From the NCBI RefSeq assembly GCF_000009705.1, contig NC_003272.1, forward strand, positions 5,970,001-6,002,000: DNA of 32,000 nt, in the 5' to 3' direction. Position numbers and translations under genes: made by a program. Of the stretch, positions 4,389 through 26,664 are shown in pieces. Origin of the DNA: Nostoc sp. PCC 7120 = FACHB-418. Lineage in GTDB: Bacteria; Cyanobacteriota; Cyanobacteriia; Cyanobacteriales; Nostocaceae. Positions within the stretch are counted from its first letter, which is position 1. Each line of letters opens with the position of its first letter. The notes beneath the pieces are model-generated. The model searched no databases. It saw only the letters and a program-made list of their open reading frames with translations, and had not been told where the DNA came from.

Positions 4389-4811
4389 GTGGCGTACTGG
4401 GTGAAACTCGTATATGAAAGGAAAGAATATGTAATCAATTTTGACCGTGTAAATGCTTTTTGTTATGAAAAGAACGGCAGGGTAACATTTTGGTTGCCTG
4501 ACTGTGCCATTCCAATTATAATTAATCCCCAAACTGACTTAGAAGACTATCACAAAATCCTAGAATATCTAGAACAAGTGACTACCGTGGCAGTAGAAAA
4601 TGCCCATTGGGTAAAAATCATTTATGAAAGAAATGAATATGTAATCAATCTCAATTGCATTAGTTCCTTTTGTCAAGAAACTAATGGCAGAATAACCTTT
4701 TGGCTACCAGATGGTACTATTCCCATTATTATTAACCCCGTCAGTAGCCCAGATTCTTATAAGAAAGTTTTGCAATACGTCCAAAAAACCACAGGACATT
4801 CTTTTTCTTAG
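4389..4811 (+). CDS. Hypothetical protein built of two tandem copies of a ~65-aa module
   Basis: A GTG start is preceded by GAGGAG 7 nt upstream. The two halves are WVKLVYERKEYVINFDRVNAFCYEKNGRVTFWLPDCAIPIIINP and WVKIIYERNEYVINLNCISSFCQETNGRITFWLPDGTIPIIINP. Confidence 0.6.
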   Translation: MAYWVKLVYERKEYVINFDRVNAFCYEKNGRVTFWLPDCAIPIIINPQTDLEDYHKILEYLEQVTTVAVENAHWVKIIYERNEYVINLNCISSFCQETNGRITFWLPDGTIPIIINPVSSPDSYKKVLQYVQKTTGHSFS

Positions 4812-6034: not shown

Positions 6035-6060
6035 TTTAATCTCTCAGTAATTAATAAAAA

Positions 6061-6126
6061 AGTCCATAGTCCACAGTCCAAAATCTATTGACAACCGTCA
6101 ACTGTCAACTGTCAACCATCAACTGT
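6061..6126. repeat. STRR heptamer arrays (AGTCCAN x3; CAACYGT/CAACCAT x5)
   Basis: agtccat agtccac agtcca is at 6061-6080. caaccgt caactgt caactgt caaccat caactgt is at 6092-6126 and ends exactly at the permease stop codon (6127-6129). Confidence 0.85.
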
Positions 6127-7017
6127 CTATTTCCGATTTTCTCCTCGTAATCGAGGATTGACAAATTCATTTAACCCCTCTCCTAGTAGTGATAACCCTA
6201 CTACCATAAATGTCATTGCTAAACCGGGAAATAGTGTAGTCCACCAAATCCCAGTTGGTAATGCTTCTAGAGCTTGTTTTAAATCAAGTCCCCATTCTGG
6301 TACTTCTTCCGGTAATCCTAGCCCTAAAAAACCCAAACCGCCTAGTACCAAAATTGCATCGGCGGCGTTAAGGGTAAAAAGTACGGGTACGCTTTGAATG
6401 ACGTTGAAAAACAGATATCGAGAAAGCACAATCCAAGTAGAAGCCCCCATTGCTTGAGCTGCTTCGATGAATACTTCAGTTTTGACGCTGACGGTGTGGT
6501 TACGCACAACGCGGTAGTATTGGGGAATGTATGCGATACTAATAGCGATCGCTGCATTTAAGATTCCTCTGCCTACTACAAACGCCAGTGTTACCGACAA
6601 TAGCAGTCCTGGTAAGGTGTAGATACTGTCCATGAGAAACAGTAATGCCTTATCTAACCTACCGCCAAGGTAGCCACTCAGCATTCCCAATGGCACGCCA
6701 ACTATCATACTCAGCGCCGTGGCTAAAATTACCACTTGCAACGCTGCTTGTGCGCCAAATAATGTCCGAGAGAAAACATCATGTCCTAAAAGAGTCGTGC
6801 CGAACCAATGTTTGGCTGATGGTGCTTCTTGAGGTGTGTTAGCCAGAAACTCTCTGGGGTTTTGTAGCCATCCCCAACTTTGGAATACAGGCGCGAAGAA
6901 TGCCAAGAAGATGAAAAATAGAGTGATAGCTAACCCAACCAGCATTAATTTTTGGGAAAGGTTGGGCTTTTTGACAAAAGATCCCCATTTTGGCAGTATA
7001 CGTTTAGTGATGGTCAT
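6127..7017 (-). CDS. ABC transporter permease, oligopeptide/dipeptide (OppC/DppC) type
   Basis: A multi-TM protein with an N-terminal anchor helix and a BPD-transporter EAA-like region (IEAAQAMGASTWIVLSRYLFFNV). Confidence 0.85.
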   Translation of the reverse strand: MTITKRILPKWGSFVKKPNLSQKLMLVGLAITLFFIFLAFFAPVFQSWGWLQNPREFLANTPQEAPSAKHWFGTTLLGHDVFSRTLFGAQAALQVVILATALSMIVGVPLGMLSGYLGGRLDKALLFLMDSIYTLPGLLLSVTLAFVVGRGILNAAIAISIAYIPQYYRVVRNHTVSVKTEVFIEAAQAMGASTWIVLSRYLFFNVIQSVPVLFTLNAADAILVLGGLGFLGLGLPEEVPEWGLDLKQALEALPTGIWWTTLFPGLAMTFMVVGLSLLGEGLNEFVNPRLRGENRK

Positions 7018-8243: not shown

Positions 8244-9596
8244 ATGACTATCAATCCTCCTCAAGGTGAAATAAAACAAGCTATTTTTAACTCGTCCATG
8301 TCGGAGAACAACCAAGAGTTTAATTGGAGACACTGTTGGTATCCGATTACTTTTTTGCAAGACTTCCCGAAAGAACTTCCCTACAGTTTTTCCTTGTATG
8401 ATGAACCTTTCGTTTTATTTAGAAATCAAGATGGAAAGTTGGGTTGCTTACCTGATATTTGTCCTCACCGTGCGGCTAAACTCTCCGATGGGCAAATAAT
8501 CGATGGTAAAATCGAGTGTTTATATCACGGTTGGCAGTTTGGTACTGATGGTCAATGTCTGCACATCCCTCAATTACCAAAAGAGGCGACAATTCCGAAA
8601 AATGCCTGTGTTCAATCTTTTGCAATTGTAGAACGTCAAGGTATTGTCTGGATGTGGGCGGGGGAAGCAGACGCAGCTGATGAAACCTTGATTCCCGCCA
8701 TACCAGAGTTAGATAAGCCGGAATTTGTCACCACAGATTTTATGTGCAATATCCCTTATGACCAAAATACTTTGATTGAAAACGCAATTGATCCGGCTCA
8801 TGTTCCTATTAGTCATAATGGTACGCTAGGTAATCGTGCAGAGGCTTTACCTTTAGAAATGGAAATAATAGCTAAATCTGTCCAGGGAATTTGTGGAAGA
8901 TATCGCAATGTCAGCTCATCTCTTTCACCTTGGATAAATATTAATTTTGTCGCACCTAATCTGGTAATGCTTTACATACCAATTAATGAAGAGCGCGGAT
9001 GGTATCGTGGAGCAGCTGCTTATTCTATACCCTTGGGAAAAAATCAATGTCGCGTTTTATTTAGAGCGTTCCAAAATTTTTCTCAATGGCGACTTAAATT
9101 AACTCCTCGCTGGTTAGAACATTGGTATCGGCAAAAAGTTTTACAGCAAGATATGCAGCAAGCAGCAGGACAACAAAAACATATTGAACGATTAATAAAA
9201 AGTCCCAGAGAACTATACTTACCACTTAAAACATCAGATTTATTTCCTGTGGAATACCGGAAGTGGCTAGATAAATACGGCTCTTCATTACCATTTTACC
9301 AAGGGTATACTACGTGTAAGACTAATTATGAGCAGAAGATTGTTTCACTATCCACCAACGATCGCTTCGAGAGCCATACTCAAATTTGTAGTTCTTGTGA
9401 TCGCGCTTATCGAGTCACAAAACTAGTAAAACATATTTTGGTCAGTGTAGCGATCACTCTCGCAGCTTTCGCTATCCTCACAGATGACTCGTGGATTTCA
9501 TCTGTGGCTGTGGTAACTTCCTTATTAGCAGTAATACTGGTGTTCATAGCTCAAAAAGTAAAAACTAAGTTTGAGCGTTCTGATACCCGTCATTAG
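8244..9596 (+). CDS. Rieske [2Fe-2S] non-haem iron oxygenase of the PAO/Tic55/PTC52 type, C-terminally membrane anchored
   Basis: The Rieske motif is CPHRAAKLSDG...CLYHGWQF. The mononuclear-iron motif is NAIDPAHVPISH. A C-terminal CSSC is followed by two hydrophobic helices. GAGGA lies upstream of the ATG. Confidence 0.8.
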   Translation: MTINPPQGEIKQAIFNSSMSENNQEFNWRHCWYPITFLQDFPKELPYSFSLYDEPFVLFRNQDGKLGCLPDICPHRAAKLSDGQIIDGKIECLYHGWQFGTDGQCLHIPQLPKEATIPKNACVQSFAIVERQGIVWMWAGEADAADETLIPAIPELDKPEFVTTDFMCNIPYDQNTLIENAIDPAHVPISHNGTLGNRAEALPLEMEIIAKSVQGICGRYRNVSSSLSPWININFVAPNLVMLYIPINEERGWYRGAAAYSIPLGKNQCRVLFRAFQNFSQWRLKLTPRWLEHWYRQKVLQQDMQQAAGQQKHIERLIKSPRELYLPLKTSDLFPVEYRKWLDKYGSSLPFYQGYTTCKTNYEQKIVSLSTNDRFESHTQICSSCDRAYRVTKLVKHILVSVAITLAAFAILTDDSWISSVAVVTSLLAVILVFIAQKVKTKFERSDTRH

Positions 9597-16171: not shown

Positions 16172-16361
16172 GGTTTGGGAGTAGGGGGGTATGGTTGTTT
16201 AACTTTTACATGAATCGGATAACTGTTCGACTTTGCAGCCTACCAAGCTATCCGACTCGGTTTGATATTCGGAGATTGTCATCAACCTCACTGGATTAAA
16301 CCTGGACTCTTATTTGGTACTCCCGATAAATTCCCATTTACCAGTTCTGACACAAAGAGTA

Positions 16362-16478
16362 CTGCCCCGCACAACCACAACCCGAAAACCTACGTTGTTG
16401 TTCCTGTTGTCACGCGCGTTCCTGTTGCGATTCGCCGAACGGCAATTCCTGGGATTGTTGTTCCACGAACCACCGCGC
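16362..16478 (-). repeat. DGR template repeat (TR)
   Basis: A non-coding copy of the 3' end of the 18219-19316 ORF, lying directly after the RT stop. In the target frame it reads [41 protein letters not shown] (AAC/AAT-rich). The last 23 nt (cgggttgtggttgtgcggggcag) are identical to the VR. Confidence 0.8.
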
Positions 16479-16505
16479 AGCAGTCGGTGTCGCCTAACCC
16501 ACTTT

Positions 16506-17726
16506 TTAAATTAACATGGCTAAGTCAAAAATTGAACTACTAAATATTCTCTGGCGCAATTGCCATGTGTCGCCGTGCTTTAAGTGGGCAACCCAACTTT
16601 GTGTTGATTGGGTTAAATGTTGAGCATCAATTTTACCTTCATCATAGTCTCGAAGCATTTGTCGTAATCTTTTTCTTCCTAAACGCAGATTATCACTGCG
16701 TACACGAATCTGGTTTGGTAAAATGCGAAACCCAACAAAATTCGCTCCATGTTTCGTTTCAAATAATTGGCTTTTTATTGGATGGATTTTTAGTCTTAAA
16801 CTCGTAAGATATTCTTCTATTATGACTCTAGCAGTTTCTAAAAATGCTTTGTCATCTGAAAATAAAGCAAAATCATCAACATAGCGAATATATTTAAATG
16901 CTTGAAGTTGTTCTTTGACAAAATGGTCAAAATTATTTAGGTAGACATTAGCAAAAAACTGACTCGTCAGATTGCCAATTGGTAAACCACATCTTCTTTC
17001 TAAAGGTGCTAACAGATTATCACCCGGAAAGTAGTTAATAACTGGTTCTTGGAAATTACTGTTATCAATAATTGTGTTAATTAGCCAGAGTGTATCAGGG
17101 CATTTTATTTTACGATATATAAGGTGTTTTAAAATTTTATGGTCAATACTGGGGAAATATTTACGAATATCAGCTTGGAAGACATAATGGCTAGAACGAG
17201 AAAATTGTGTAAAGCGACGCAAAGCACGATGAGAACCAAAACCCACCCGATTGGCGTAGGAGTCACTAATAAATGTGCGTTCAAATATGGGAACAATTAT
17301 GTTATAGAGGGCATGATGCACAACTCTATCACGATAGGGAGCAGCCGAAATCATACGCGGCTTGGGTTCATAAATTTGAAATGTTTTATATATTCCTGGC
17401 AAGTATGTTTTGCTTTGTAATTCTTCTTGTAGTTGAAATAATTCTGACTCTAAATTGTAATTAAACTCTAAAATATTTGGCTCTTCAGTTCATTTTATGG
17501 AACAGAATAATAAATAAAACCCAAAGATAGCCTGTATTCATTGCTGTGACTGGGTTTTAAGTTTTTGAGCCTTTCTATAAAACTGTGATTTTAATGCTCC
17601 ACCATAAAACCAACGCAAGAGCCAAATATTTTCTCGAAAGCGTTTACCTCGCTGTGCTTTCTTTGCTGCTAATAATAAGTTATCAAATGTTATAATTTCA
17701 CTCCAAAGATTGCCGTGTCTTTTCAT
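16506..17726 (-). pseudogene. DGR reverse transcriptase, interrupted by a MITE
   Basis: The N-terminal fragment is 17726-17538 ([34 protein letters not shown]...). The C-terminal fragment is 17471-16506 ([55 protein letters not shown]...[16 protein letters not shown]...[11 protein letters not shown]). Removing 153 nt restores one 355-codon ORF. Confidence 0.85.
17478..17624. mobile_element. Miniature inverted-repeat element (~147 bp) inserted in the RT gene
   Basis: The terminal inverted repeats are tggctcttcagttcatttta and taaaaccaacgcaagagcca. It is flanked by a direct AATATT at 17472-17477 and 17625-17630. It has no coding capacity and places in-frame stops in the RT. Confidence 0.7.
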
Positions 17727-17777
17727 CTATAGGACTCATATTTGATTTTTGAACAGATACGTAGTGGCGTGTCATTC

Positions 17778-18122
17778 TTATACATCTCTATTTTTTTGTT
17801 GTTTTATCCAGCCACCTAAATCCATGCCAATCTCATTTAACAGCTTTTGGGCATACTCATAACGTTCTGTTTTGATTAAGTTAAAATCTAGGAGTAGGCG
17901 AGTTTGATAACGTAAGATATCTAACTTACTATTTAAGGACTCTAAATAAATTAATTTCTGTTTAGCGTACCGTGCTAGGATTATAGCATCTAGTAAATTG
18001 TATAATTCTGTAATAATCCGATCGCCTAGTAATAACTTATGATCTCTGGGGAGGCGATTTAAAATTGGTACGTACCACTTGATTAAATCCTATGTTTTTT
18101 GTATTATAAGTAAATCACTCAT
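17778..18122 (-). pseudogene. avd: DGR accessory variability determinant (avd) with an in-frame amber codon
   Basis: The hand translation is MSDLLIIQKT*DLIKWYVPILNRLPRDHKLLLGDRIITELYNLLDAIILARYAKQKLIYLESLNSKLDILRYQTRLLLDFNLIKTERYEYAQKLLNEIGMDLGGWIKQQKNRDV. The TAG is at 18090-18092. The gene sits between the target and the RT as in canonical DGRs. Confidence 0.75.
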
Positions 18123-18218
18123 CCAAGAAATCTCAAAAAATTTGAGCGCGCAGAGCGCGAAACCTTAAGAATGGTAAAGAAAAAAGTGCAGAGTGCTAAA
18201 GGGCAAGAGAGTAAAGTG

Positions 18219-19316
18219 CTAAGAAAGCCTGCCCCGCACAACCACAACCCGACAACCCACGCGCTCGTTCCTGTCGTCGCGCGTGTTACTGAGGCGACTC
18301 AACGAACGGCAACCCCTGGGATAGTAGTTCCACGAACCACCACGCAGCAGACGTCGCTGATTATCATTATTAATTAGCCATGCACTACCATCAGTTGGTG
18401 CATTATTATAATTTTCCTGCCACTCATCCTGACACCATTCCCATATATTACCACACATATCAAATAAACCAAAGGGGTTAGCAGGAAATTCTCCCACATT
18501 GGTTGTTTGTCCTCGATATTCACCCCTGGGAGAAGAACCATAGGTGTGATTTCCGTCATAATTCGCCAACTCAGTTGTAATCGTTGCGCCACAATAAAAC
18601 GGTGTAGTCGTTCCCCCGCGACAAGCATATTCCCATTCGGCTTCACTGGGTAAGCGATATATCTGACCAGTCTTTTTAGATAGTCTGGTGCAAAATTCAA
18701 CCGCATCATCCCAGGAAATACGCTCAACGGGACGATTAGCACCTTTAAAGCGAGATGGGTCAGATTTTAAATCAATATTTACTTTATCAAAAGCGGCAAC
18801 GGCTGCCCATTGAGCTTGGGTTACGGGAAATTTCCCCATGAAAAAGGGTTGAATGGTGACGTTGTGCTGTGGACTTTCAGAATCATCTCGTCCTTCTTCA
18901 TTGTCTGGCGAACCCATGAGGAATTTACCGCCGGGAATGGACACCATCTCTAGCGTTACACCATTACCCAAGTCTTCTGCAAAAAATTCTGCACTTCCCT
19001 GACTGCGCTCAATAATTTTTCCTTGAGCGTCCACATTCACAGTTTCAAACTCAAATTTCTTGGCTTTAAGGGGTTCTTCAGATACAGGCGGTTTCTGTTT
19101 ACCAAGAATCCGTTCTTCTATAGGTGCAACATCTTCATCTCGCAGACTTAAGATATTTTGCAAGCGTTTGAGAGCCTTGCGCCTTGCTTGGGAAAGAGGA
19201 TATTGTTTTATCTTAGACAACTCTTGCTCATAAAGTTGCAGTTTTTCTTGGCGTTTTCTATGAGGTTCGAGAACTTCAAATTCAATTAAATTAGTATCAT
19301 CAATAGATAAATTCAA
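18219..19316 (-). CDS. DGR target protein, FGE-sulfatase / C-type-lectin fold; likely the 3' part of a longer caspase fusion ORF
   Basis: Has FGE-type motifs (HNVTIQPFFMGKFPVTQAQW, RPVERISWDDAVEFC, YRLPSEAEWEYACRGG, MCGNIWEWCQD, LRGGSW). The track start is a TTG. The same frame stays open, with no start codon, up to 19466. Confidence 0.8.
   Translation of the reverse strand: MNLSIDDTNLIEFEVLEPHRKRQEKLQLYEQELSKIKQYPLSQARRKALKRLQNILSLRDEDVAPIEERILGKQKPPVSEEPLKAKKFEFETVNVDAQGKIIERSQGSAEFFAEDLGNGVTLEMVSIPGGKFLMGSPDNEEGRDDSESPQHNVTIQPFFMGKFPVTQAQWAAVAAFDKVNIDLKSDPSRFKGANRPVERISWDDAVEFCTRLSKKTGQIYRLPSEAEWEYACRGGTTTPFYCGATITTELANYDGNHTYGSSPRGEYRGQTTNVGEFPANPFGLFDMCGNIWEWCQDEWQENYNNAPTDGSAWLINNDNQRRLLRGGSWNYYPRGCRSLSRLSNTRDDRNERVGCRVVVVRGRLS
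18229..18345 (-). repeat. DGR variable repeat (VR) at the 3' end of the target gene
   Basis: A 117-nt match to 16362-16478. It encodes [41 protein letters not shown]. Confidence 0.8.
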
Positions 19317-19461
19317 TATACGCCTAAATTCAAATAGATAAGGGCGGTTAGCTTCAATAATTTCTTCAATTTCTCCTTCATCACCAAAAACAATTGTCTC
19401 AAATTCCTTGCGATACTTCAGTTTGGGGTCATCCTTCGGTGATTTTGCAAGAAGAATTGGC

Positions 19462-20172
19462 TCACCTTTTTTTTAGGTAATATAATTCTGGTGTCATGTT
19501 GGGAGATTCTTCCTGCACTTTGCTTTTCGCATATTCATGCAACTCATCTACCGCAATCCAACCATCGCCATTTTTATCGGCTGCACCTTTTTCAATGCCT
19601 TCTACTAAATAATTGGTGTAAATCCCTAAGCCAAAATCATCAGACTCAAAGGCATATTGTGTAGAAGTAGAAGCCGTGAGAATCGCCCTTCCCTCACCGC
19701 CTAAATACTGTTGCAGGTTAATCTCACCACTATCCCTGGCTGTAAAACCTTTGGCAAATGCACCACTAAAACAACAATCTAAAATTACTACCTGTCGCTT
19801 AAATGTCTTGAGGCTCATCCAGCCTTGTACATCTCTAGCAGCTATAGCTGAAGCTGTCCTTAATTTTCCCTGATCTTTGCGAGTGTTACGAGTGGAAAAG
19901 TAAAAATGACCGTCTTCTACGGTGACACCATGACCAGAAAAATACAAAAGCCCCAGGTCATCTTTCTCACACTTGAAGTAAAAATCCTCGATAGCCTCGG
20001 CCATTTCTTGCCGTGAGGGATTTTCTAGGACTTTGACCGCATCAAAACCACCCATTTCAGGGTCTAGCAAAACGCGCTGCATCGCCTCAACATCCTTCAC
20101 AGCTTTTGGTAATGGTGCTAATGTCGGCTCATCATATTCACTAATCCCAATTAACAGTGCTACCTTAGCCAT
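19462..20172 (-). CDS. Caspase-like peptidase (C14, orthocaspase) with a C-terminal EF-hand
   Basis: The catalytic His is in LLYFSGHG and the catalytic Cys in VVILDCCFSGAF. The canonical EF-hand loop is DKNGDGWIAVDE (19543-19578). The ATG at 20172 (MAKVALLIGISEY) is preferred over the TTG at 20238. Confidence 0.8.
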   Translation of the reverse strand: MAKVALLIGISEYDEPTLAPLPKAVKDVEAMQRVLLDPEMGGFDAVKVLENPSRQEMAEAIEDFYFKCEKDDLGLLYFSGHGVTVEDGHFYFSTRNTRKDQGKLRTASAIAARDVQGWMSLKTFKRQVVILDCCFSGAFAKGFTARDSGEINLQQYLGGEGRAILTASTSTQYAFESDDFGLGIYTNYLVEGIEKGAADKNGDGWIAVDELHEYAKSKVQEESPNMTPELYYLKKR

Positions 20173-20575
20173 TGTTGCTGTCTTGGTTGTTTCTGGCCTG
20201 ATTAATGAGTTCCTCGGTTTTTTGTTTGATGTATTCAATATCTTCTTTGCTATTCGCTTTCCCCCTAAATTTTGCTCCTTCCTTGGTGATTTCTATGTCT
20301 AGTTCCAAATTCCTACCAATACCACGACCTAAAAAGTCAAATAAAGGCTTGATTAAAGCAGGACTGACTAGGGCTGTGAATTTTCCCGGCGAAAAACCAC
20401 CTAAAGCCTTGGAACCTGTTGGTACTTCTGTAATGGGAACTAAAGCTGCATCTTCTACCCCGTCCACTTCTCTTAACTGGGGTAGCAAATTTTGTACTTT
20501 TTCTTGCAATTCAGCATCATCTAAGCCTGGTTCATTCAAGGAAATAGTTATCTGAACCTGAGATGTTGTTTCCAT
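20165..20575 (-). CDS. Small uncharacterised protein translationally coupled to the caspase gene
   Basis: A 136-aa ORF with an ATG start. Its stop overlaps the caspase start in ATGGCTAA. No enzyme motif was found. Confidence 0.6.
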   Translation of the reverse strand: METTSQVQITISLNEPGLDDAELQEKVQNLLPQLREVDGVEDAALVPITEVPTGSKALGGFSPGKFTALVSPALIKPLFDFLGRGIGRNLELDIEITKEGAKFRGKANSKEDIEYIKQKTEELINQARNNQDSNNG

Positions 20576-23698: not shown

Positions 23699-23830
23699 CA
23701 GAGACGCTACGCGAACAGAACTTTTCACTGCGTTTAAAAACATTAGTTCTGTATTGGAAACAGAACATTAATTTGGGAAGCATAGCCGTAGCCAGATAAA
23801 TTACGACATCAAGCCAAGATAAAACCCTCA

Positions 23831-23885
23831 CAACCGTCAACAGTCAACCGTCAACAGTCAACCGTCAACAGTCAACCGTCAACAG
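23831..23885. repeat. STRR array (CAACCGT CAACAGT)x4
   Basis: Four perfect 14-nt units lie in the convergent intergenic region. Confidence 0.9.
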
Positions 23886-23944
23886 CTATAAAACCAACCA
23901 AAGCTTTACCTCTATTCCCCATACCATATTTATTCAGTAAATTG

Positions 23945-25382: not shown

Positions 25383-25418
25383 GTCAGAGACGCGATTAAT
25401 CGAGTCTGTACAGTTGTC
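25383..25418. repeat. 36-nt dispersed repeat with a palindromic core (copy 1)
   Basis: gtcagagacgcgattaatcgagtctgtacagttgtc equals the reverse complement of 26629-26664 except at 2 positions. Confidence 0.85.
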
Positions 25419-25444: not shown

Positions 25445-25467
25445 AAAAAACGTTGTATGCAACGTTT
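25445..25467 (-). terminator. Rho-independent terminator-like hairpin after the amidase-like gene
   Basis: The minus strand reads AAACGTTG-cata-CAACGTTT followed by TTTTC. It lies ~75 nt after the stop at 25541. Confidence 0.5.
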
Positions 25468-25479
25468 GTACTTAGTTTT

Positions 25480-25540
25480 CCCCAGTCCCTAATCCCCAAT
25501 CCCCAGTCCCCAATCCCCAGTCCCCAATCCCCAATCCCCA
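25480..25540. repeat. STRR array (CCCCAGT/CCCCAAT heptamers, ~8.5 units)
   Basis: The units are ccccagt ccctaat ccccaat ccccagt ccccaat ccccagt ccccaat ccccaat cccca. The array abuts the stop codon at 25541. Confidence 0.9.
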
Positions 25541-26584
25541 TCAAATAATCCCCAACCGAGTTAAACGTTCAATAGTTTCCTGCTGTGTTTGTATAAAATG
25601 TTTGCGCTCTATTTCTTTATTCAGCATAGTGTTTGCTGGGTAAAATTTAGCTTGACTGTAGCTTTGAGCATACATTTCAAACCTTTGGCGCGATAATAAA
25701 TTATTTAAACCTGGTCTGGTGCGATCGCGTCTTAATGCAGCTAAGTCTATTTCTGCAAAAGCAGCCATACTTTCACCTGGGCCTGTTTCCGCTAAGATTA
25801 TCCCACGATGGTCAATGATTTTGGAGCCGCCATCAACGGAACCAATGGGAATCGCACTATTCGCTAAACCTGCGCTATTGGCTGAAACTACATAAGCCAT
25901 ATTCTCAACAGCACGAGTAATTTTTGCTGCATCTTTGGGAGTGAGGTTCTTGCTATACACCTCAGATGTGGAATGGAGAAAAATTTCTGCCCCCCGCATT
26001 GCCAAACATCTAGCTACTTCCGGGTATAAAATTTCCTCTGATGCCAAAGCTGCTAAATTACCAATGGCAGTTTTAGCCACAGGAAACACACCTTCTAAGC
26101 CATAACAGTCAAGGTATTTATCCCAAACATCATGAGGTGTGGGAGCAAATAAAGAATTTAACCGCCGATACCGTAAAACAACTGAACCAGAAGGGTCAAT
26201 GACAAAACAAGTTTGGAAGTATAATCCGGGGAAATTGGGGTCAAGTTCGTAAGCGTTACCTGCAAGAAATATTTGCTGTTTTTGAGCAATCATTCCCAGT
26301 GCTTCATATTCTGCACCGTTAATTTCCAAACAGGCTTTATCTGCCCATACTTGCAAAGGTTCTCCCATCGGAAAGCCTGTGAGAAAATATTCTGGTAACA
26401 CAATTAAGCGACAGTCAAACCCAATAAAAGCAATACTGGCAGCAATTTGTTGTGCCAAGCGGTTAATTGTATTGTGCATCATTAACCCAGCTTCTTGGCG
26501 ATCGCTTGCTTGATTCACTGCATGACAAGTAACTTGCAGCGCCAAAGCCCGAAATGAGTTGAGATTCCCAGGATTATCTACCAT
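25541..26584 (-). CDS. Nitrilase-superfamily protein, aliphatic-amidase (AmiE)-like, with a non-canonical catalytic triad
   Basis: IVLPEYFLTG holds the Glu. YRRLNSLF sits where AmiE has YRKIIPW. LAALASEEILYPEVARCLAMRGAEI sits where AmiE has [23 protein letters not shown]. The ATG at 26584 is preferred, because upstream track codons run into repeat DNA. Confidence 0.75.
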   Translation of the reverse strand: MVDNPGNLNSFRALALQVTCHAVNQASDRQEAGLMMHNTINRLAQQIAASIAFIGFDCRLIVLPEYFLTGFPMGEPLQVWADKACLEINGAEYEALGMIAQKQQIFLAGNAYELDPNFPGLYFQTCFVIDPSGSVVLRYRRLNSLFAPTPHDVWDKYLDCYGLEGVFPVAKTAIGNLAALASEEILYPEVARCLAMRGAEIFLHSTSEVYSKNLTPKDAAKITRAVENMAYVVSANSAGLANSAIPIGSVDGGSKIIDHRGIILAETGPGESMAAFAEIDLAALRRDRTRPGLNNLLSRQRFEMYAQSYSQAKFYPANTMLNKEIERKHFIQTQQETIERLTRLGII

Positions 26585-26628: not shown

Positions 26629-26664
26629 GACAATTGTACAGACGCGATTAATCGCGTCTCTGAC
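26629..26664. repeat. 36-nt dispersed repeat with a palindromic core (copy 2, inverted)
   Basis: The sequence is gacaattgtacagacgcgattaatcgcgtctctgac. The core AGAGACGCGATTAATCGCGTCTCT is a perfect palindrome. Confidence 0.85.

What the first reader, a model, noticed from the sequence alone, without database searches (positions are those of the whole stretch)
16362..20575. Diversity-generating retroelement whose diversified target is a caspase-linked C-type-lectin/FGE-fold protein
All DGR parts are readable on the minus strand. (1) A small ORF (20575-20165) overlaps a peptidase-C14 caspase ORF (20172-19462) in ATGGCTAA. The caspase has FSGHG, DCCFSG and an EF-hand. (2) An FGE/CLec-fold ORF (19316-18219) ends in ...GGSWNYYPRGCRSLSRLSNTRDDRNERVGCRVVVVRG. 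(3) An Avd-like 114-codon helical ORF spans 18122-17778. (4) An RT carries the DGR-type motif-4 signature IGNLTSQ plus YVDD (17726-16506). (5) Immediately after the RT stop lies a non-coding 117-nt copy of the target 3' end. In the target frame it reads [37 protein letters not shown], with the Asn AAC/AAT richness expected of a template repeat. The TR is downstream of the RT rather than between avd and the RT, because that gap is only 51 nt. From memory, surveys of cyanobacterial DGRs have reported multidomain signalling or protease targets, so the class is not new. This locus still shows programmable ligand recognition wired to a Ca-binding protease and a coupled small partner protein. That is the architecture of a sensor-effector (conflict or programmed-cell-death) module, and it is the most interesting system in the window.
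Basis: partly seen in the sequence, partly recalled or inferred. Interest (0 to 1): 0.85.

Follow-up and report, generated by a model that had tools for sequence, protein, structure and literature searches.

The report
Broken DGR beside caspase suicide module
This is the already catalogued all5014/all5016 diversity-generating retroelement of Nostoc sp. PCC 7120, attached to a known EACC1-caspase cell-suicide module, but its mutagenesis machinery is broken, so the sensor it once diversified is now frozen.

Summary
Avd passes NCBIfam's DGR-Avd model. The RT's best solved-structure match is a 328-aa RT chain (8ub7_A). The 122-nt TR/VR pair is adenine-biased, and the TR lies 3' of the RT as in most of 80 related loci. 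Three of the described "ORFs" are not intact. The avd gene has an in-frame TAG at codon 11. The RT is split by a 145-nt MITE with 8-bp target-site duplications. The caspase and FGE/CLec ORFs are two halves of one 650-aa gene, split by one extra A that only this sequence carries. The small upstream ORF is a divergent EACC1, the pro-toxin partner of "EACC1-associated" caspases. The window is the Nostoc sp. PCC 7120 reference chromosome. This DGR (RT all5014, target all5016) is listed by Vallota-Eastman 2020, and EACC1-caspase modules linked to DGRs are described by Kaur 2020 and Evans 2025. What this analysis adds:
- The diversifier is dead in cis.
- The VR is invariant across assemblies and carries 8 non-adenine changes.
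- A sister strain deleted avd-RT by VR x TR recombination.
- An RT-14-like structured RNA follows the TR.
Novelty: already known. Interest is low to moderate.

The parts
20165..20575 (-). EACC1-family small protein (136 aa; BAB76717.1), intact; predicted protease-activated pro-toxin
   Evidence: Intact ORF. Conserved directly upstream of the caspase-FGE gene in L001, L002, L003, L005, L014, L029, L078, L033 and L040. The L040 orthologue passes Pfam EACC1 (45.2 bits, 1.1e-11) and four cyanobacterial orthologues are sub-threshold. hhalign of the family against L040 gives probability 90%, E 1.5e-6. The window protein itself hits no Pfam, NCBIfam or PADLOC model.
18219..20172 (-). DGR target gene: caspase (Peptidase_C14) - linker - FGE/C-type-lectin fold. 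It is 650 aa once one A is removed. In this sequence it is split into all5017 (20172-19462) and all5016 (19316-18219).
   Evidence: The reconstructed 650-aa protein hits Peptidase_C14 (4e-20), FGE-sulfatase (1e-58) and NCBIfam caspase_w_EACC1 (157.4 bits, cutoff 140). Relatives have a single ORF of 675-822 aa. Sister assemblies call a 650-aa protein. His81, Cys134 and the EF-type loop are conserved.
19467..19474 (-). A8 homopolymer causing the +1 frame offset between the caspase and FGE parts
   Evidence: All eight sister assemblies have A7 here. L001 reads ...AAA AAG GGT GAG... in frame. The 236-aa split caspase is found on only 2 contigs, whereas the 650-aa form is on 54.
18229..18350 (-). 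Variable repeat (VR), covering the last ~40 codons of the target
   Evidence: 83.6% identical to the TR, with 12 of 20 mismatches at TR adenines. Identical in 8 assemblies. Carries 8 derived non-adenine changes, including GFR->GCR.
18130..18160 (-). GC hairpin (CGCGC-TCT-GCGCG) followed by a T-run, between the target stop and avd. Its role is unknown (terminator-like or a DGR cis element).
   Evidence: Read directly from the sequence. An equivalent covarying hairpin plus T-run is present in 13 relatives. The simple terminator scan did not call it.
17778..18122 (-). avd pseudogene (114 codons, TAG at codon 11 = 18092-18090)
   Evidence: In-frame stop. Relatives have TAC or TAT at this codon. 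With the stop read as Tyr it hits NCBIfam DivGenRetAVD at 134.8 bits (cutoff 80) and Pfam bAvd at 1e-19. The TAG is present in all 7 sister assemblies that hold avd.
17624..17726 (-). RT gene, 5' segment (codons 1 to ~34), ending in the upstream copy of the target-site duplication (17631-17624)
17479..17623 (-). 145-nt MITE inserted in the RT gene. Imperfect terminal inverted repeats GGCTCTTG...AAGAGCC; 8-bp target-site duplication AAATATTT at 17631-17624 and 17478-17471.
   Evidence: Terminal inverted repeats (pair I1). Absent from 6 related RTs at exactly this site. Copies at 91%, 84% and 71% identity on plasmids of Nostoc UHCC 0926, Nostoc C052 and Calothrix NIES-22; the two Nostoc copies were inspected and have the same termini and their own 8-bp duplications. 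Identical 145/145 copies join to two other flanks in sister contigs.
16506..17478 (-). RT gene, 3' segment (all5014; carries IGNLTSQ and YVDD)
   Evidence: The reconstructed 355-aa RT hits RVT_1 (2e-22). Its best PDB match is 8ub7_A at 3.3e-49 over residues 2-339. It is 85% identical to the Nostoc CHAB 5844 RT. It deviates at 0 of the columns that are >=95% conserved in 28 relatives. The only 100% match among ~15 billion proteins is the truncated 282-aa ORF.
16362..16483 (-). Template repeat (TR), non-coding, starting 22 nt after the RT stop
   Evidence: The TR lies 3' of the RT in most of the 59 related loci with an adenine-biased repeat pair. It differs from the L001 TR at 3 positions. It has 15 variable codons, about 9e14 possible variants.
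16202..16361 (-). Structured RNA domain directly 3' of the TR (RT-14-like), presumed RT/Avd-binding and priming part of the DGR RNA
   Evidence: Conserved in 23 loci. 36 pairs in 5 helices, 26 of them with compensatory changes. 95% of cells paired against 31-49% when slid, and 0 of 500 shuffles reach the observed values. Full-length sub-threshold match to Rfam RT-14 at 40.8 bits (gathering score 48.1), E 1.4e-4, at 16359-16212.

Best explanation
The locus is a two-layer system.

LAYER 1, a sensor-effector pair. A small EACC1 protein is translationally coupled to a 650-aa protein made of an N-terminal caspase-type protease, a linker and a C-terminal C-type-lectin/FGE-fold ligand-binding domain. 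By analogy with the characterised EACC1-caspase system, ligand binding by the lectin domain would activate the protease. The protease would cut EACC1, and the C-terminal fragment of EACC1 would form membrane pores and kill the cell. This mechanism is inferred, not shown for this locus.

LAYER 2, a DGR made of avd, RT, TR and a structured RNA 3' of the TR. In intact relatives it rewrites up to 28 adenine positions (15 codons) in the last ~40 codons of the lectin domain.

In this genome (Nostoc sp. PCC 7120) layer 2 is dead in cis. The avd gene has an amber codon at position 11, and the RT is interrupted by a recently active 145-nt MITE. The variable region is therefore frozen. It has acquired ordinary point mutations that the DGR would otherwise have overwritten. 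The split of the target into separate caspase and lectin ORFs is a single-base homopolymer difference unique to the reference sequence, either a sequencing error or a substrain mutation. A closely related strain has gone further and deleted avd and RT by recombination between VR and TR.
For: DGR identity:
- Avd passes the NCBIfam equivalog.
- The RT's top PDB match is 8ub7_A at 3e-49, against 7e-18 for the best group II intron RT.
- The TR/VR pair is adenine-biased, p = 9e-5.
- The same gene order, with the TR 3' of the RT, holds in most of the 59 related loci that have an adenine-biased repeat pair.
- A covarying RT-14-like RNA follows the TR.

EACC1-caspase identity:
- NCBIfam caspase_w_EACC1 scores 157 bits against a cutoff of 140.
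- EACC1 homology is supported through orthologues.
- The small ORF is conserved directly upstream of the caspase-FGE gene in nine related loci, and in the window its stop overlaps the caspase start.
- The mechanism is taken from PMC12642450 and PMC7159879.

Lesions:
- TAG in avd.
- MITE in the RT, with terminal inverted repeats, a target-site duplication and other copies elsewhere.
- Both lesions are present in every sister assembly that covers the site.
- No intact allele of this RT exists among ~15 billion proteins.

Frozen VR:
- It is identical in 8 assemblies, including one that is 0.6-1.3% diverged.
- 40% of its mismatches are non-adenine, against 14% pooled over 75 repeat pairs in relatives, p = 0.004.
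- All 8 non-adenine differences are derived in the VR.

Frameshift is reference-specific: A8 here against A7 in 8 other assemblies; the split protein is on 2 contigs and the 650-aa form on 54.

VR x TR deletion: L084 joins VR to the TR flank within the 24-nt identical block, giving the predicted 664-aa protein.
Against: - No experiment here shows loss of activity.
- PCC 7120 has a second DGR (RT all3497; PMC7517822). Its RT and Avd could in principle act in trans on the still-intact TR RNA, and I could not retrieve that locus.
- Most 'sister assemblies' are re-sequencings of the same culture lineage, so VR invariance is weaker evidence than eight independent strains would be.
- The RT and avd show no decay beyond one lesion each, which fits poorly with 8 point changes having accumulated in the VR after inactivation. 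Homing may have stopped earlier for another reason, or the VR changes have another origin.
- The window's own small protein matches no EACC1 model directly.
- The protease-to-EACC1-to-pore mechanism is transferred from a distant Ktedonobacter system whose sensor is an Avs NTPase, not a lectin domain.
Confidence: 0.85

Rival explanations
1. The cassette is dead in cis but still works in trans. The RT and Avd of the second PCC 7120 DGR (all3497) use this TR RNA, whose structured 3' domain is intact, to keep diversifying the all5016/17 lectin domain.
For: The TR and the RT-14-like RNA are intact; by my reading the RNA is effectively 35/36 paired, like L001. A second DGR exists in the genome (PMC7517822). 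Trans-diversification is reported for other multicellular bacteria (PMC10907252).
Against: The VR is identical in all assemblies. [quoted passage not shown] Whether the all3497 RT/Avd recognises this RNA is unknown.
Confidence: 0.07
2. The interruptions are sequencing or assembly artefacts and the DGR is intact and active.
For: The A8/A7 difference sits in a homopolymer and is unique to the 2001 reference sequence. That one lesion may well be an error.
Against: The TAG and the 145-nt insert are present in independent NCBI, ENA and JGI assemblies. A 153-nt insertion with terminal inverted repeats and a target-site duplication is not an error type. The only 100%-identical RT protein on record is the truncated ORF, on 58 contigs.
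Confidence: 0.02
3. The VR's non-adenine differences do not reflect decay. Instead the VR was last written from another template (the all3497 TR), or was gene-converted by a CLec paralogue such as all3226.
For: RT and avd show no extra decay, so drift after inactivation looks too slow to give 8 changes. PCC 7120 has CLec paralogues, one of them a caspase-CLec 'remote' target.
Against: At 4 of the 8 sites, 41-44 of 44 clade TRs carry the window TR's base. No other TR matches the VR at more than 3 of 8 sites. The window's own TR remains the best fit, with 8 non-adenine mismatches against >=10 for any other. One change destroys the conserved GFR scaffold motif, which a functional template would not encode.
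Confidence: 0.12
4. The 16362-16483 repeat is the tail of a decayed second target gene rather than a template.
For: In frame it reads like the lectin C-terminus, and gene callers in one assembly predicted a 57-aa 'FGE-sulfatase (weak)' ORF there.
Against: There is no upstream coding remnant, because it starts 22 nt after the RT stop. Mismatches are adenine-biased in the TR-to-VR direction. The position and sequence are conserved across the clade; it differs from the L001 TR at only 3 positions although the RTs are only 85% identical. A covarying structured RNA follows it.
Confidence: 0.01

Closest known systems
The all5014 / all5016 DGR of Nostoc sp. PCC 7120, as catalogued by Vallota-Eastman et al. 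2020 (PMC7517822, Table S1)
   Same: It is this very locus: RT BAB76713.1, variable protein BAB76715.1 (all5016), remote variable protein BAB74925.1.
   Different: The catalogue lists the target as 'CLec' only and counts the locus as one of two DGRs. The passages I read do not mention the amber codon in avd, the MITE in the RT, the frameshift that hides the caspase domain, or the EACC1 partner.
EACC1-caspase two-gene conflict system (Kaur et al. 2020, 'System 4'; Evans et al. 2025, Ktedonobacter EACC1-KrAvs12)
   Same: A 5' small EACC1 gene is followed by a protein with an N-terminal caspase and a variable C-terminal sensor. The caspase passes NCBIfam 'caspase, EACC1-associated type'. Evans et al. 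state that such proteases are linked to DGRs among other modules.
   Different: The sensor here is a DGR-diversified lectin/FGE fold rather than an Avs NTPase. The EACC1 is divergent and below the Pfam threshold. Cleavage and pore formation are untested for this subfamily.
Bordetella phage BPP-1 DGR (prototype; the 8ub7 structure series)
   Same: Avd plus RT, adenine-specific TR-to-VR transfer into the C-terminus of a C-type-lectin fold, and an identical GC-rich 3' block (IMH-like). The RT aligns over 338 residues at 3e-49. That 8ub7 is bRT is from memory; the tool names it only 'Reverse transcriptase', 328 aa.
   Different: The gene order is target-avd-RT-TR, with the TR 3' of the RT. In BPP-1 the TR lies between avd and the RT (from memory). 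The locus is cellular and chromosomal, and the target is an intracellular multidomain protease rather than a phage tail fibre.
DGRs of multicellular bacteria that diversify conflict-system sensors (Dore et al. 2024, PMC10907252), and the Trichodesmium erythraeum IMS101 DGR (L051)
   Same: Same RT clade (64-85% identity), same TR position, same structured RNA 3' of the TR. Targets combine CLec with caspase or other effector domains. Disrupted loci and trans-activity are discussed there.
   Different: This one is inactivated by a MITE and a nonsense codon, and it pairs with EACC1 rather than with a MoxR-vWA ternary system.
Rfam RT-14 RNA (RF02921) and the related RT-19 and RT-3 motifs
   Same: Full-length alignment (1-144 of 144) with the same helices and the CCGAAAAUCAAAC...GGUAG...CGAA core.
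   Different: It scores 40.8 bits against a gathering score of 48.1. Seven relatives also fail the gathering threshold, so this is a related variant and not a curated member.

Membership tests
Diversity-generating retroelement (DGR) | Reverse transcriptase of the DGR clade (motif 4 [IVL]GxxxSQ, YxDD) | tested here: met
   IGNLTSQ and YVDD are present. The best PDB match is 8ub7_A at 3.3e-49, against 6.6e-18 for a group II intron RT and 1e-12 for retron-type RTs. All NCBIfam group II, retron and Drt models score far below their cutoffs. No explicit RT phylogeny was built.
Diversity-generating retroelement (DGR) | Accessory protein Avd | tested here: met
   NF033474 DivGenRetAVD at 134.8 bits (cutoff 80) and Pfam bAvd at 1.2e-19, on the sequence with the stop read as Tyr.
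Diversity-generating retroelement (DGR) | TR/VR pair whose differences fall at TR adenines, with the VR at the 3' end of a target gene | tested here: met
   12 of 28 adenine sites differ against 8 of 94 other sites (p = 9e-5). There are 11 AAY codons, and the mismatches sit at codon positions 1 and 2. The 40% non-adenine share is atypical: the pooled figure for relatives is 14%.
Diversity-generating retroelement (DGR) | IMH-like identical GC-rich 3' end of VR and TR, and a downstream cis hairpin | tested here: inconclusive
   A 24-nt identical block, TCGGGTTGTGGTTGTGCGGGGCAG, ends both repeats. A conserved GC hairpin lies ~70-80 nt downstream of the VR in all relatives, but its role is untested.
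Diversity-generating retroelement (DGR) | Intact, active machinery (ongoing mutagenic homing) | tested here: not met
   avd has TAG at codon 11. The RT is interrupted by a MITE carrying two in-frame stops. The VR is identical in 8 assemblies. Activity itself cannot be tested in silico.
EACC1-caspase two-gene conflict system | 5' gene encoding an EACC1 domain (Pfam PF19953) | tested here: inconclusive
   The window protein has no hit at E<=1. Of nine aligned family members (the window protein and eight orthologues), one orthologue passes the threshold (45.2 bits) and four score 12-16 bits. The profile link to the passing member has hhalign probability 90%, E 1.5e-6.
EACC1-caspase two-gene conflict system | 3' gene with an N-terminal caspase of the EACC1-associated type and an intact catalytic dyad | tested here: met
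   NF047832 caspase_w_EACC1 at 157.4 bits (cutoff 140). His81 and Cys134 are conserved in 8 of 8 sequences. NCBI names the 650-aa form 'caspase, EACC1-associated type'.
EACC1-caspase two-gene conflict system | Protease cleaves EACC1 and releases a pore-forming C-terminal fragment | not testable with these tools
   Shown only for Ktedonobacter EACC1-KrAvs12 (PMC12642450).
MITE (non-autonomous transposable element) | Short, non-coding, terminal inverted repeats, target-site duplication, multiple dispersed copies | tested here: met
   The element is 145 nt. Its terminal inverted repeats are 77% complementary over 44 nt. The 8-bp duplications differ between copies: AAATATTT, GAAAATCG and AAAATTAC. 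Three plasmid copies exist, and at least 2 further identical copies are inferred in the same genome. The parent transposase was not identified.
Rfam RT-14 RNA (RF02921) | Score at or above the family's gathering threshold | tested here: not met
   40.8 bits against 48.1. There is no hit at gathering threshold in the window or in seven relatives. The structure itself is strongly supported by covariation.

The most novel reading that the evidence does not exclude
The dead cassette is still serviced in trans. The RT and Avd of the second PCC 7120 DGR (all3497) recognise the intact TR and its RT-14-like RNA, so the EACC1-caspase sensor can still be diversified under conditions not sampled in culture. 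A broader version is that cyanobacterial genomes keep 'orphan' TR-VR pairs as a reservoir driven by a single master RT.
Probability: 0.07. Interest if true: 0.5.

Novelty: already known. Interest (0 to 1): 0.25.

Why it matters
The value is mainly corrective, for a model organism.

- The PCC 7120 reference splits one 650-aa EACC1-associated caspase-lectin protein into two genes, all5017 and all5016. The published DGR catalogue therefore lists the target as lectin-only.
- The DGR counted as one of the strain's two is non-functional in cis.
- Anyone planning DGR or EACC1-caspase experiments in PCC 7120 should know this and should use all3497 or repair all5014 and avd.
- The locus also gives a natural series of DGR decay: an intact relative, then the nonsense plus MITE state, then the VR x TR deletion.
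- It shows that the clade's TR is followed by a covarying RNA that the Rfam RT-14 model just misses.

None of this changes how DGRs or EACC1 systems are understood.

Tried and rejected
- **HDV-like ribozyme.** There is a sub-threshold full-length match to the CPEB3 ribozyme model inside the RNA 3' of the TR (18.8 bits, gathering score 35). I rejected it. The alignment rests on one hairpin plus CGAA, and RT-14 explains the whole region at 40.8 bits.
- **More MITE copies.** None were found in the rest of the window or in 1.1 Mb of related loci. They were found only on plasmids and, by inference, through contig switching.
- **Retrieving all3497 and all3226.** I tried two large protein searches to test trans-templating and gene conversion. 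Neither protein appeared in the 120 listed hits, so only an indirect test was possible.
- **RNA helix 1.** I first read the lost T in CTCTTTTG as a lesion, because 3 pairs appeared broken. I now reject that: in my reading of the alignment it is an offset, the T is lost from the adjoining T-run, and CTCTT still pairs with AAGAG.
- **Promoter and terminator scans.** They gave no more hits than shuffled sequence.
- **Literature search for the RT-n RNA motifs.** It found nothing usable.
- **Direct hits for the small ORF.** PADLOC and NCBIfam gave none.
- **Structure prediction.** Not run, because the HMM evidence was decisive for every domain except EACC1, and from memory no EACC1 structure is deposited in the PDB (not checked here).

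Full report
**What is in the sequence**

All elements lie on the minus strand between 20575 and 16202. In order they are:
- a 136-aa ORF (20575-20165) whose stop overlaps the next start in ATGGCTAA;
- a caspase-domain ORF (20172-19462);
- an FGE/C-type-lectin ORF (19316-18219);
- an Avd-like frame (18122-17778);
- an RT frame (17726-16506);
- a non-coding repeat of the target's 3' end, starting 22 nt after the RT stop.

I delimit the repeat pair as VR 18350-18229 and TR 16483-16362 (122 nt). There are 20 mismatches. Twelve fall on the TR's 28 adenines and eight on the other 94 bases (Fisher p = 9e-5). The last 24 nt are identical. The TR has 11 AAY codons and 15 codons that adenine mutagenesis could vary, giving about 9e14 protein variants.

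**Domain evidence**

On sequences with the lesions repaired, the matches are as follows.
- FGE-sulfatase at 1e-58 and Peptidase_C14 at 4e-20 in one 650-aa protein; bAvd at 1e-19; RVT_1 at 2e-22.
- NCBIfam's DGR-Avd equivalog is passed (134.8 bits, cutoff 80), as is 'caspase, EACC1-associated type' (157.4 bits, cutoff 140).
- The RT's best solved-structure match is 8ub7_A, a 328-aa 'Reverse transcriptase' that I recognise from memory as the Bordetella phage DGR bRT. It scores 3.3e-49 over 338 residues, with IGSLTSQ aligned to IGNLTSQ. Group II intron RTs reach only 7e-18.

1. *avd.* Codon 11 (18092-18090) is TAG. Six of seven relatives have TAC or TAT there.
2. *RT.* The gene carries a 145-nt insert (17623-17479) flanked by an 8-bp direct duplication, AAATATTT. 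Insert plus duplication adds 51 codons with two stops. Six related RTs lack it at exactly that point, and removing it restores ...[14 protein letters not shown]....
 - The insert has imperfect terminal inverted repeats.
 - It occurs at 91%, 84% and 71% identity in unannotated DNA of three Nostocales plasmids.
 - The two Nostoc plasmid copies I inspected have the same termini and their own 8-bp duplications, GAAAATCG and AAAATTAC.
 - It is therefore a MITE.
 - In two metagenome contigs the identical 145-nt element continues into different flanks. That implies at least two more identical copies in the same genome, and so recent activity.
3. *Target.* The caspase and FGE ORFs are offset by +1 at an A8 run (19474-19467). 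Every relative with this architecture has one ORF of 675-822 aa.

**Source organism and sister assemblies**

Exact-sequence look-ups identify the window as the Nostoc (Anabaena) sp. PCC 7120 reference chromosome. The EACC1-like protein is BAB76717.1, the split caspase is BAB76716.1, the lectin ORF is BAB76715.1 (all5016) and HisS is BAB76711.1.
- Two sister assemblies are identical to the window over 11.8 kb except for one gap.
- That gap is the A-run. All eight assemblies have A7 and encode the 650-aa protein, or a 664-aa form in L084.
- The split caspase occurs on two contigs only, and the 650-aa form on 54.
- Three of the assemblies come from ENA study PRJEB12287, a defined mock community (PMC4787001). 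From memory that community contains PCC 7120 DNA. If so, the extra A is either an error in the 2001 sequence or a substrain mutation.
- By contrast, the TAG and the MITE are present in every assembly that covers them.
- Among about 15 billion proteins, the only 100%-identical RT entry is the truncated 282-aa ORF, on 58 contigs. The nearest full-length RT is 89% identical.

**Is the DGR still working?**

The evidence says it is not working in cis.
- The VR is identical in all eight assemblies. That includes L084, whose flanks differ by 0.6-1.3%.
- *Caveat:* most of these are the same culture lineage sequenced again.
- The VR differs from its TR at eight non-adenine sites, which is 40% of the mismatches. 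Over 75 repeat pairs from 59 related loci the pooled figure is 14% (p = 0.004; only 6 of 75 pairs reach 40%).
- At all eight sites the window's TR has the same base as the TR of its closest relative, L001. At four of them, 41-44 of 44 clade TRs agree with the window's TR. So the VR carries the derived state.
- One of these changes turns the conserved GFR scaffold motif into GCR. All seven relatives keep Phe.
- One apparent adenine mismatch (GTAGG) is really a G-to-A change in the TR.
- No other TR fits the VR better than its own. This argues against templating by a different TR.

**An unresolved timing problem**

Apart from their single lesions, the RT and avd look pristine. The RT deviates at 0 of the columns that are at least 95% conserved in 28 relatives. 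Avd deviates at 2 of 51, both conservative changes. Their inactivation therefore looks recent, yet the VR has diverged by 8.5% at non-adenine sites.

Three explanations remain open:
- homing stopped well before the RT and avd were hit;
- the RT was retained for remote targets such as all3226 (PMC7517822);
- the VR was altered by selection or by gene conversion.

I could not retrieve all3497 or all3226 to test these.

**A further stage of decay in a sister strain**

Contig L084 (JGI sample 3300014786) has the full VR sequence joined to the TR's downstream flank. The crossover lies within the 24-nt identical block, and avd and the RT are absent. The resulting protein has exactly the predicted 664 aa. 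A 24-nt repeat is shorter than the k-mer sizes I would expect such assemblies to use (from memory), so I consider the deletion real.

**The small ORF and the likely mechanism**

The ORF is conserved directly upstream of the caspase-FGE gene in nine related loci, from Nostoc to an acidobacterium.
- The acidobacterial member passes Pfam EACC1 (45.2 bits). Four cyanobacterial members are sub-threshold. The window protein does not hit.
- A profile comparison links the cyanobacterial family to the passing member (probability 90%, E 1.5e-6).
- Kaur et al. 2020 defined the EACC1-caspase pair as a conflict system of multicellular bacteria.
- Evans et al. 2025 showed for a Ktedonobacter system that the activated caspase cleaves EACC1 and that its C-terminal fragment permeabilises membranes. 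They note EACC1-protease modules linked to DGRs.

By inference, the lectin domain senses a ligand, the caspase is activated, EACC1 is cut, and the cell dies. Each of these steps is inferred for this locus.

**Other DGR parts**

- The avd-RT-TR order is the norm in this clade.
- Directly 3' of the TR lies a conserved RNA of about 155 nt (window ~16361-16202). It has 36 pairs in five helices, 26 of them with compensatory changes.
- In that structure 95% of cells are paired, against 31-49% when the partners are slid. There are 129 compensatory cells against 39 +/- 7 in shuffles, and 0 of 500 shuffles reach the observed value.
- It aligns full length to Rfam RT-14 but scores below the gathering threshold (40.8 against 48.1 bits). 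Seven relatives also fail the threshold.
- The window's copy is intact. In my reading, the three apparently broken pairs are an alignment offset caused by a T-run one base shorter.
- A covarying GC hairpin plus T-run lies between the target stop and avd in all relatives.

**Comparison with what is known, and verdict**

This exact locus is in Table S1 of Vallota-Eastman et al. 2020: RT BAB76713.1 / all5014, variable protein all5016, listed as 'CLec'.
- Orthocaspase-CLec variable proteins are described in that paper.
- DGRs that diversify conflict-system sensors, including disrupted loci and trans-activity, are described by Dore et al. 2024.
- Full-length caspase-FGE orthologues number well over a hundred in Nostocales, and many are already named 'caspase, EACC1-associated type'.

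The finding is therefore real but already known. What this analysis adds is the non-functional state of the diversifier, the true architecture and EACC1 partner of the target, the VR x TR deletion variant, and the RT-14-like RNA. I score interest at 0.25.

Noticed in passing
window 16202-16361 (minus strand); L001-L054, ~160 nt after each TR: A covarying structured RNA of ~155 nt follows the TR in 23 DGR loci, from Nostocales and Trichodesmium to Acidobacteria. It resembles Rfam RT-14, RT-19 and RT-3 but falls below the gathering score, in the window (RT-14: 40.8 bits, GA 48.1) and in seven relatives scanned at gathering threshold. The Rfam model seems not to cover this large clade.
   Followed up: yes
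L084:7000-7124 (JGI sample 3300014786), corresponding to window 18229-18353 joined to 16361 and downstream: A closely related strain (98.7-99.4% identical) lacks avd and the RT. The VR is fused to the TR's downstream flank within the 24-nt identical block, giving a 664-aa target. This looks like DGR loss by VR x TR recombination.
   Followed up: yes
window 17471-17631; L089:1501-1645; L090:1501-1644; L082 and L085 at the insert: A 145-nt MITE family with 8-bp target-site duplications. Identical copies are inferred elsewhere in PCC 7120, because contigs switch flank at the element. One of those contigs continues towards DUF1233/DUF3987 genes and the other towards kdpC. Diverged copies sit on Nostoc and Calothrix plasmids. 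The parent transposase and any published name were not identified.
   Followed up: partly
window 19467-19474: The PCC 7120 reference has A8 where eight other assemblies have A7. This splits a 650-aa gene into all5017 and all5016 in GenBank and RefSeq. It is probably a reference error or a substrain mutation.
   Followed up: yes
window 18130-18215 (minus strand) and the equivalent stretch in 13 relatives: Between the target stop and avd lies a pyrimidine-rich stretch with repeated CTTTAGC/CTTTAC-like motifs. It is followed by a covarying GC hairpin and a T-run just before the avd start. It could be a terminator or attenuator, or the DGR target-recognition hairpin.
   Followed up: partly
window 16261-16336 (minus strand): Sub-threshold full-length match to the HDV-like CPEB3 ribozyme model (18.8 bits, gathering score 35). 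I judged it a chance match, because RT-14 explains the region better.
   Followed up: yes
window 25383-25418 and 26629-26664: A 36-nt inverted repeat, 94% complementary, containing the palindrome GACGCGATTAATCGCGTC, brackets a CN_hydrolase-type gene rather than a transposase. The same palindrome appears downstream of the DGR in L036, so it is probably a dispersed Nostocales repeat.
   Followed up: partly
window 6055-6130, 23808-23897, 25465-25555: Tandem heptamer arrays (GTCAACN, TCCCCAR) of the short tandemly repeated kind that is common in heterocystous cyanobacteria.
   Followed up: no
window 4398-4529 / 4608-4739, and 9026-9063 / 9272-9309: A 132-nt direct repeat (73% identity, 210 nt apart), and a 38-nt inverted repeat pair (71% complementary) enclosing 208 nt. 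The second could be another small mobile element.
   Followed up: no
window 18229-18350 against 16362-16483: Timing mismatch. The VR has 8 derived non-adenine changes, yet the RT and avd show no decay beyond one lesion each. The cause is unresolved.
   Followed up: partly
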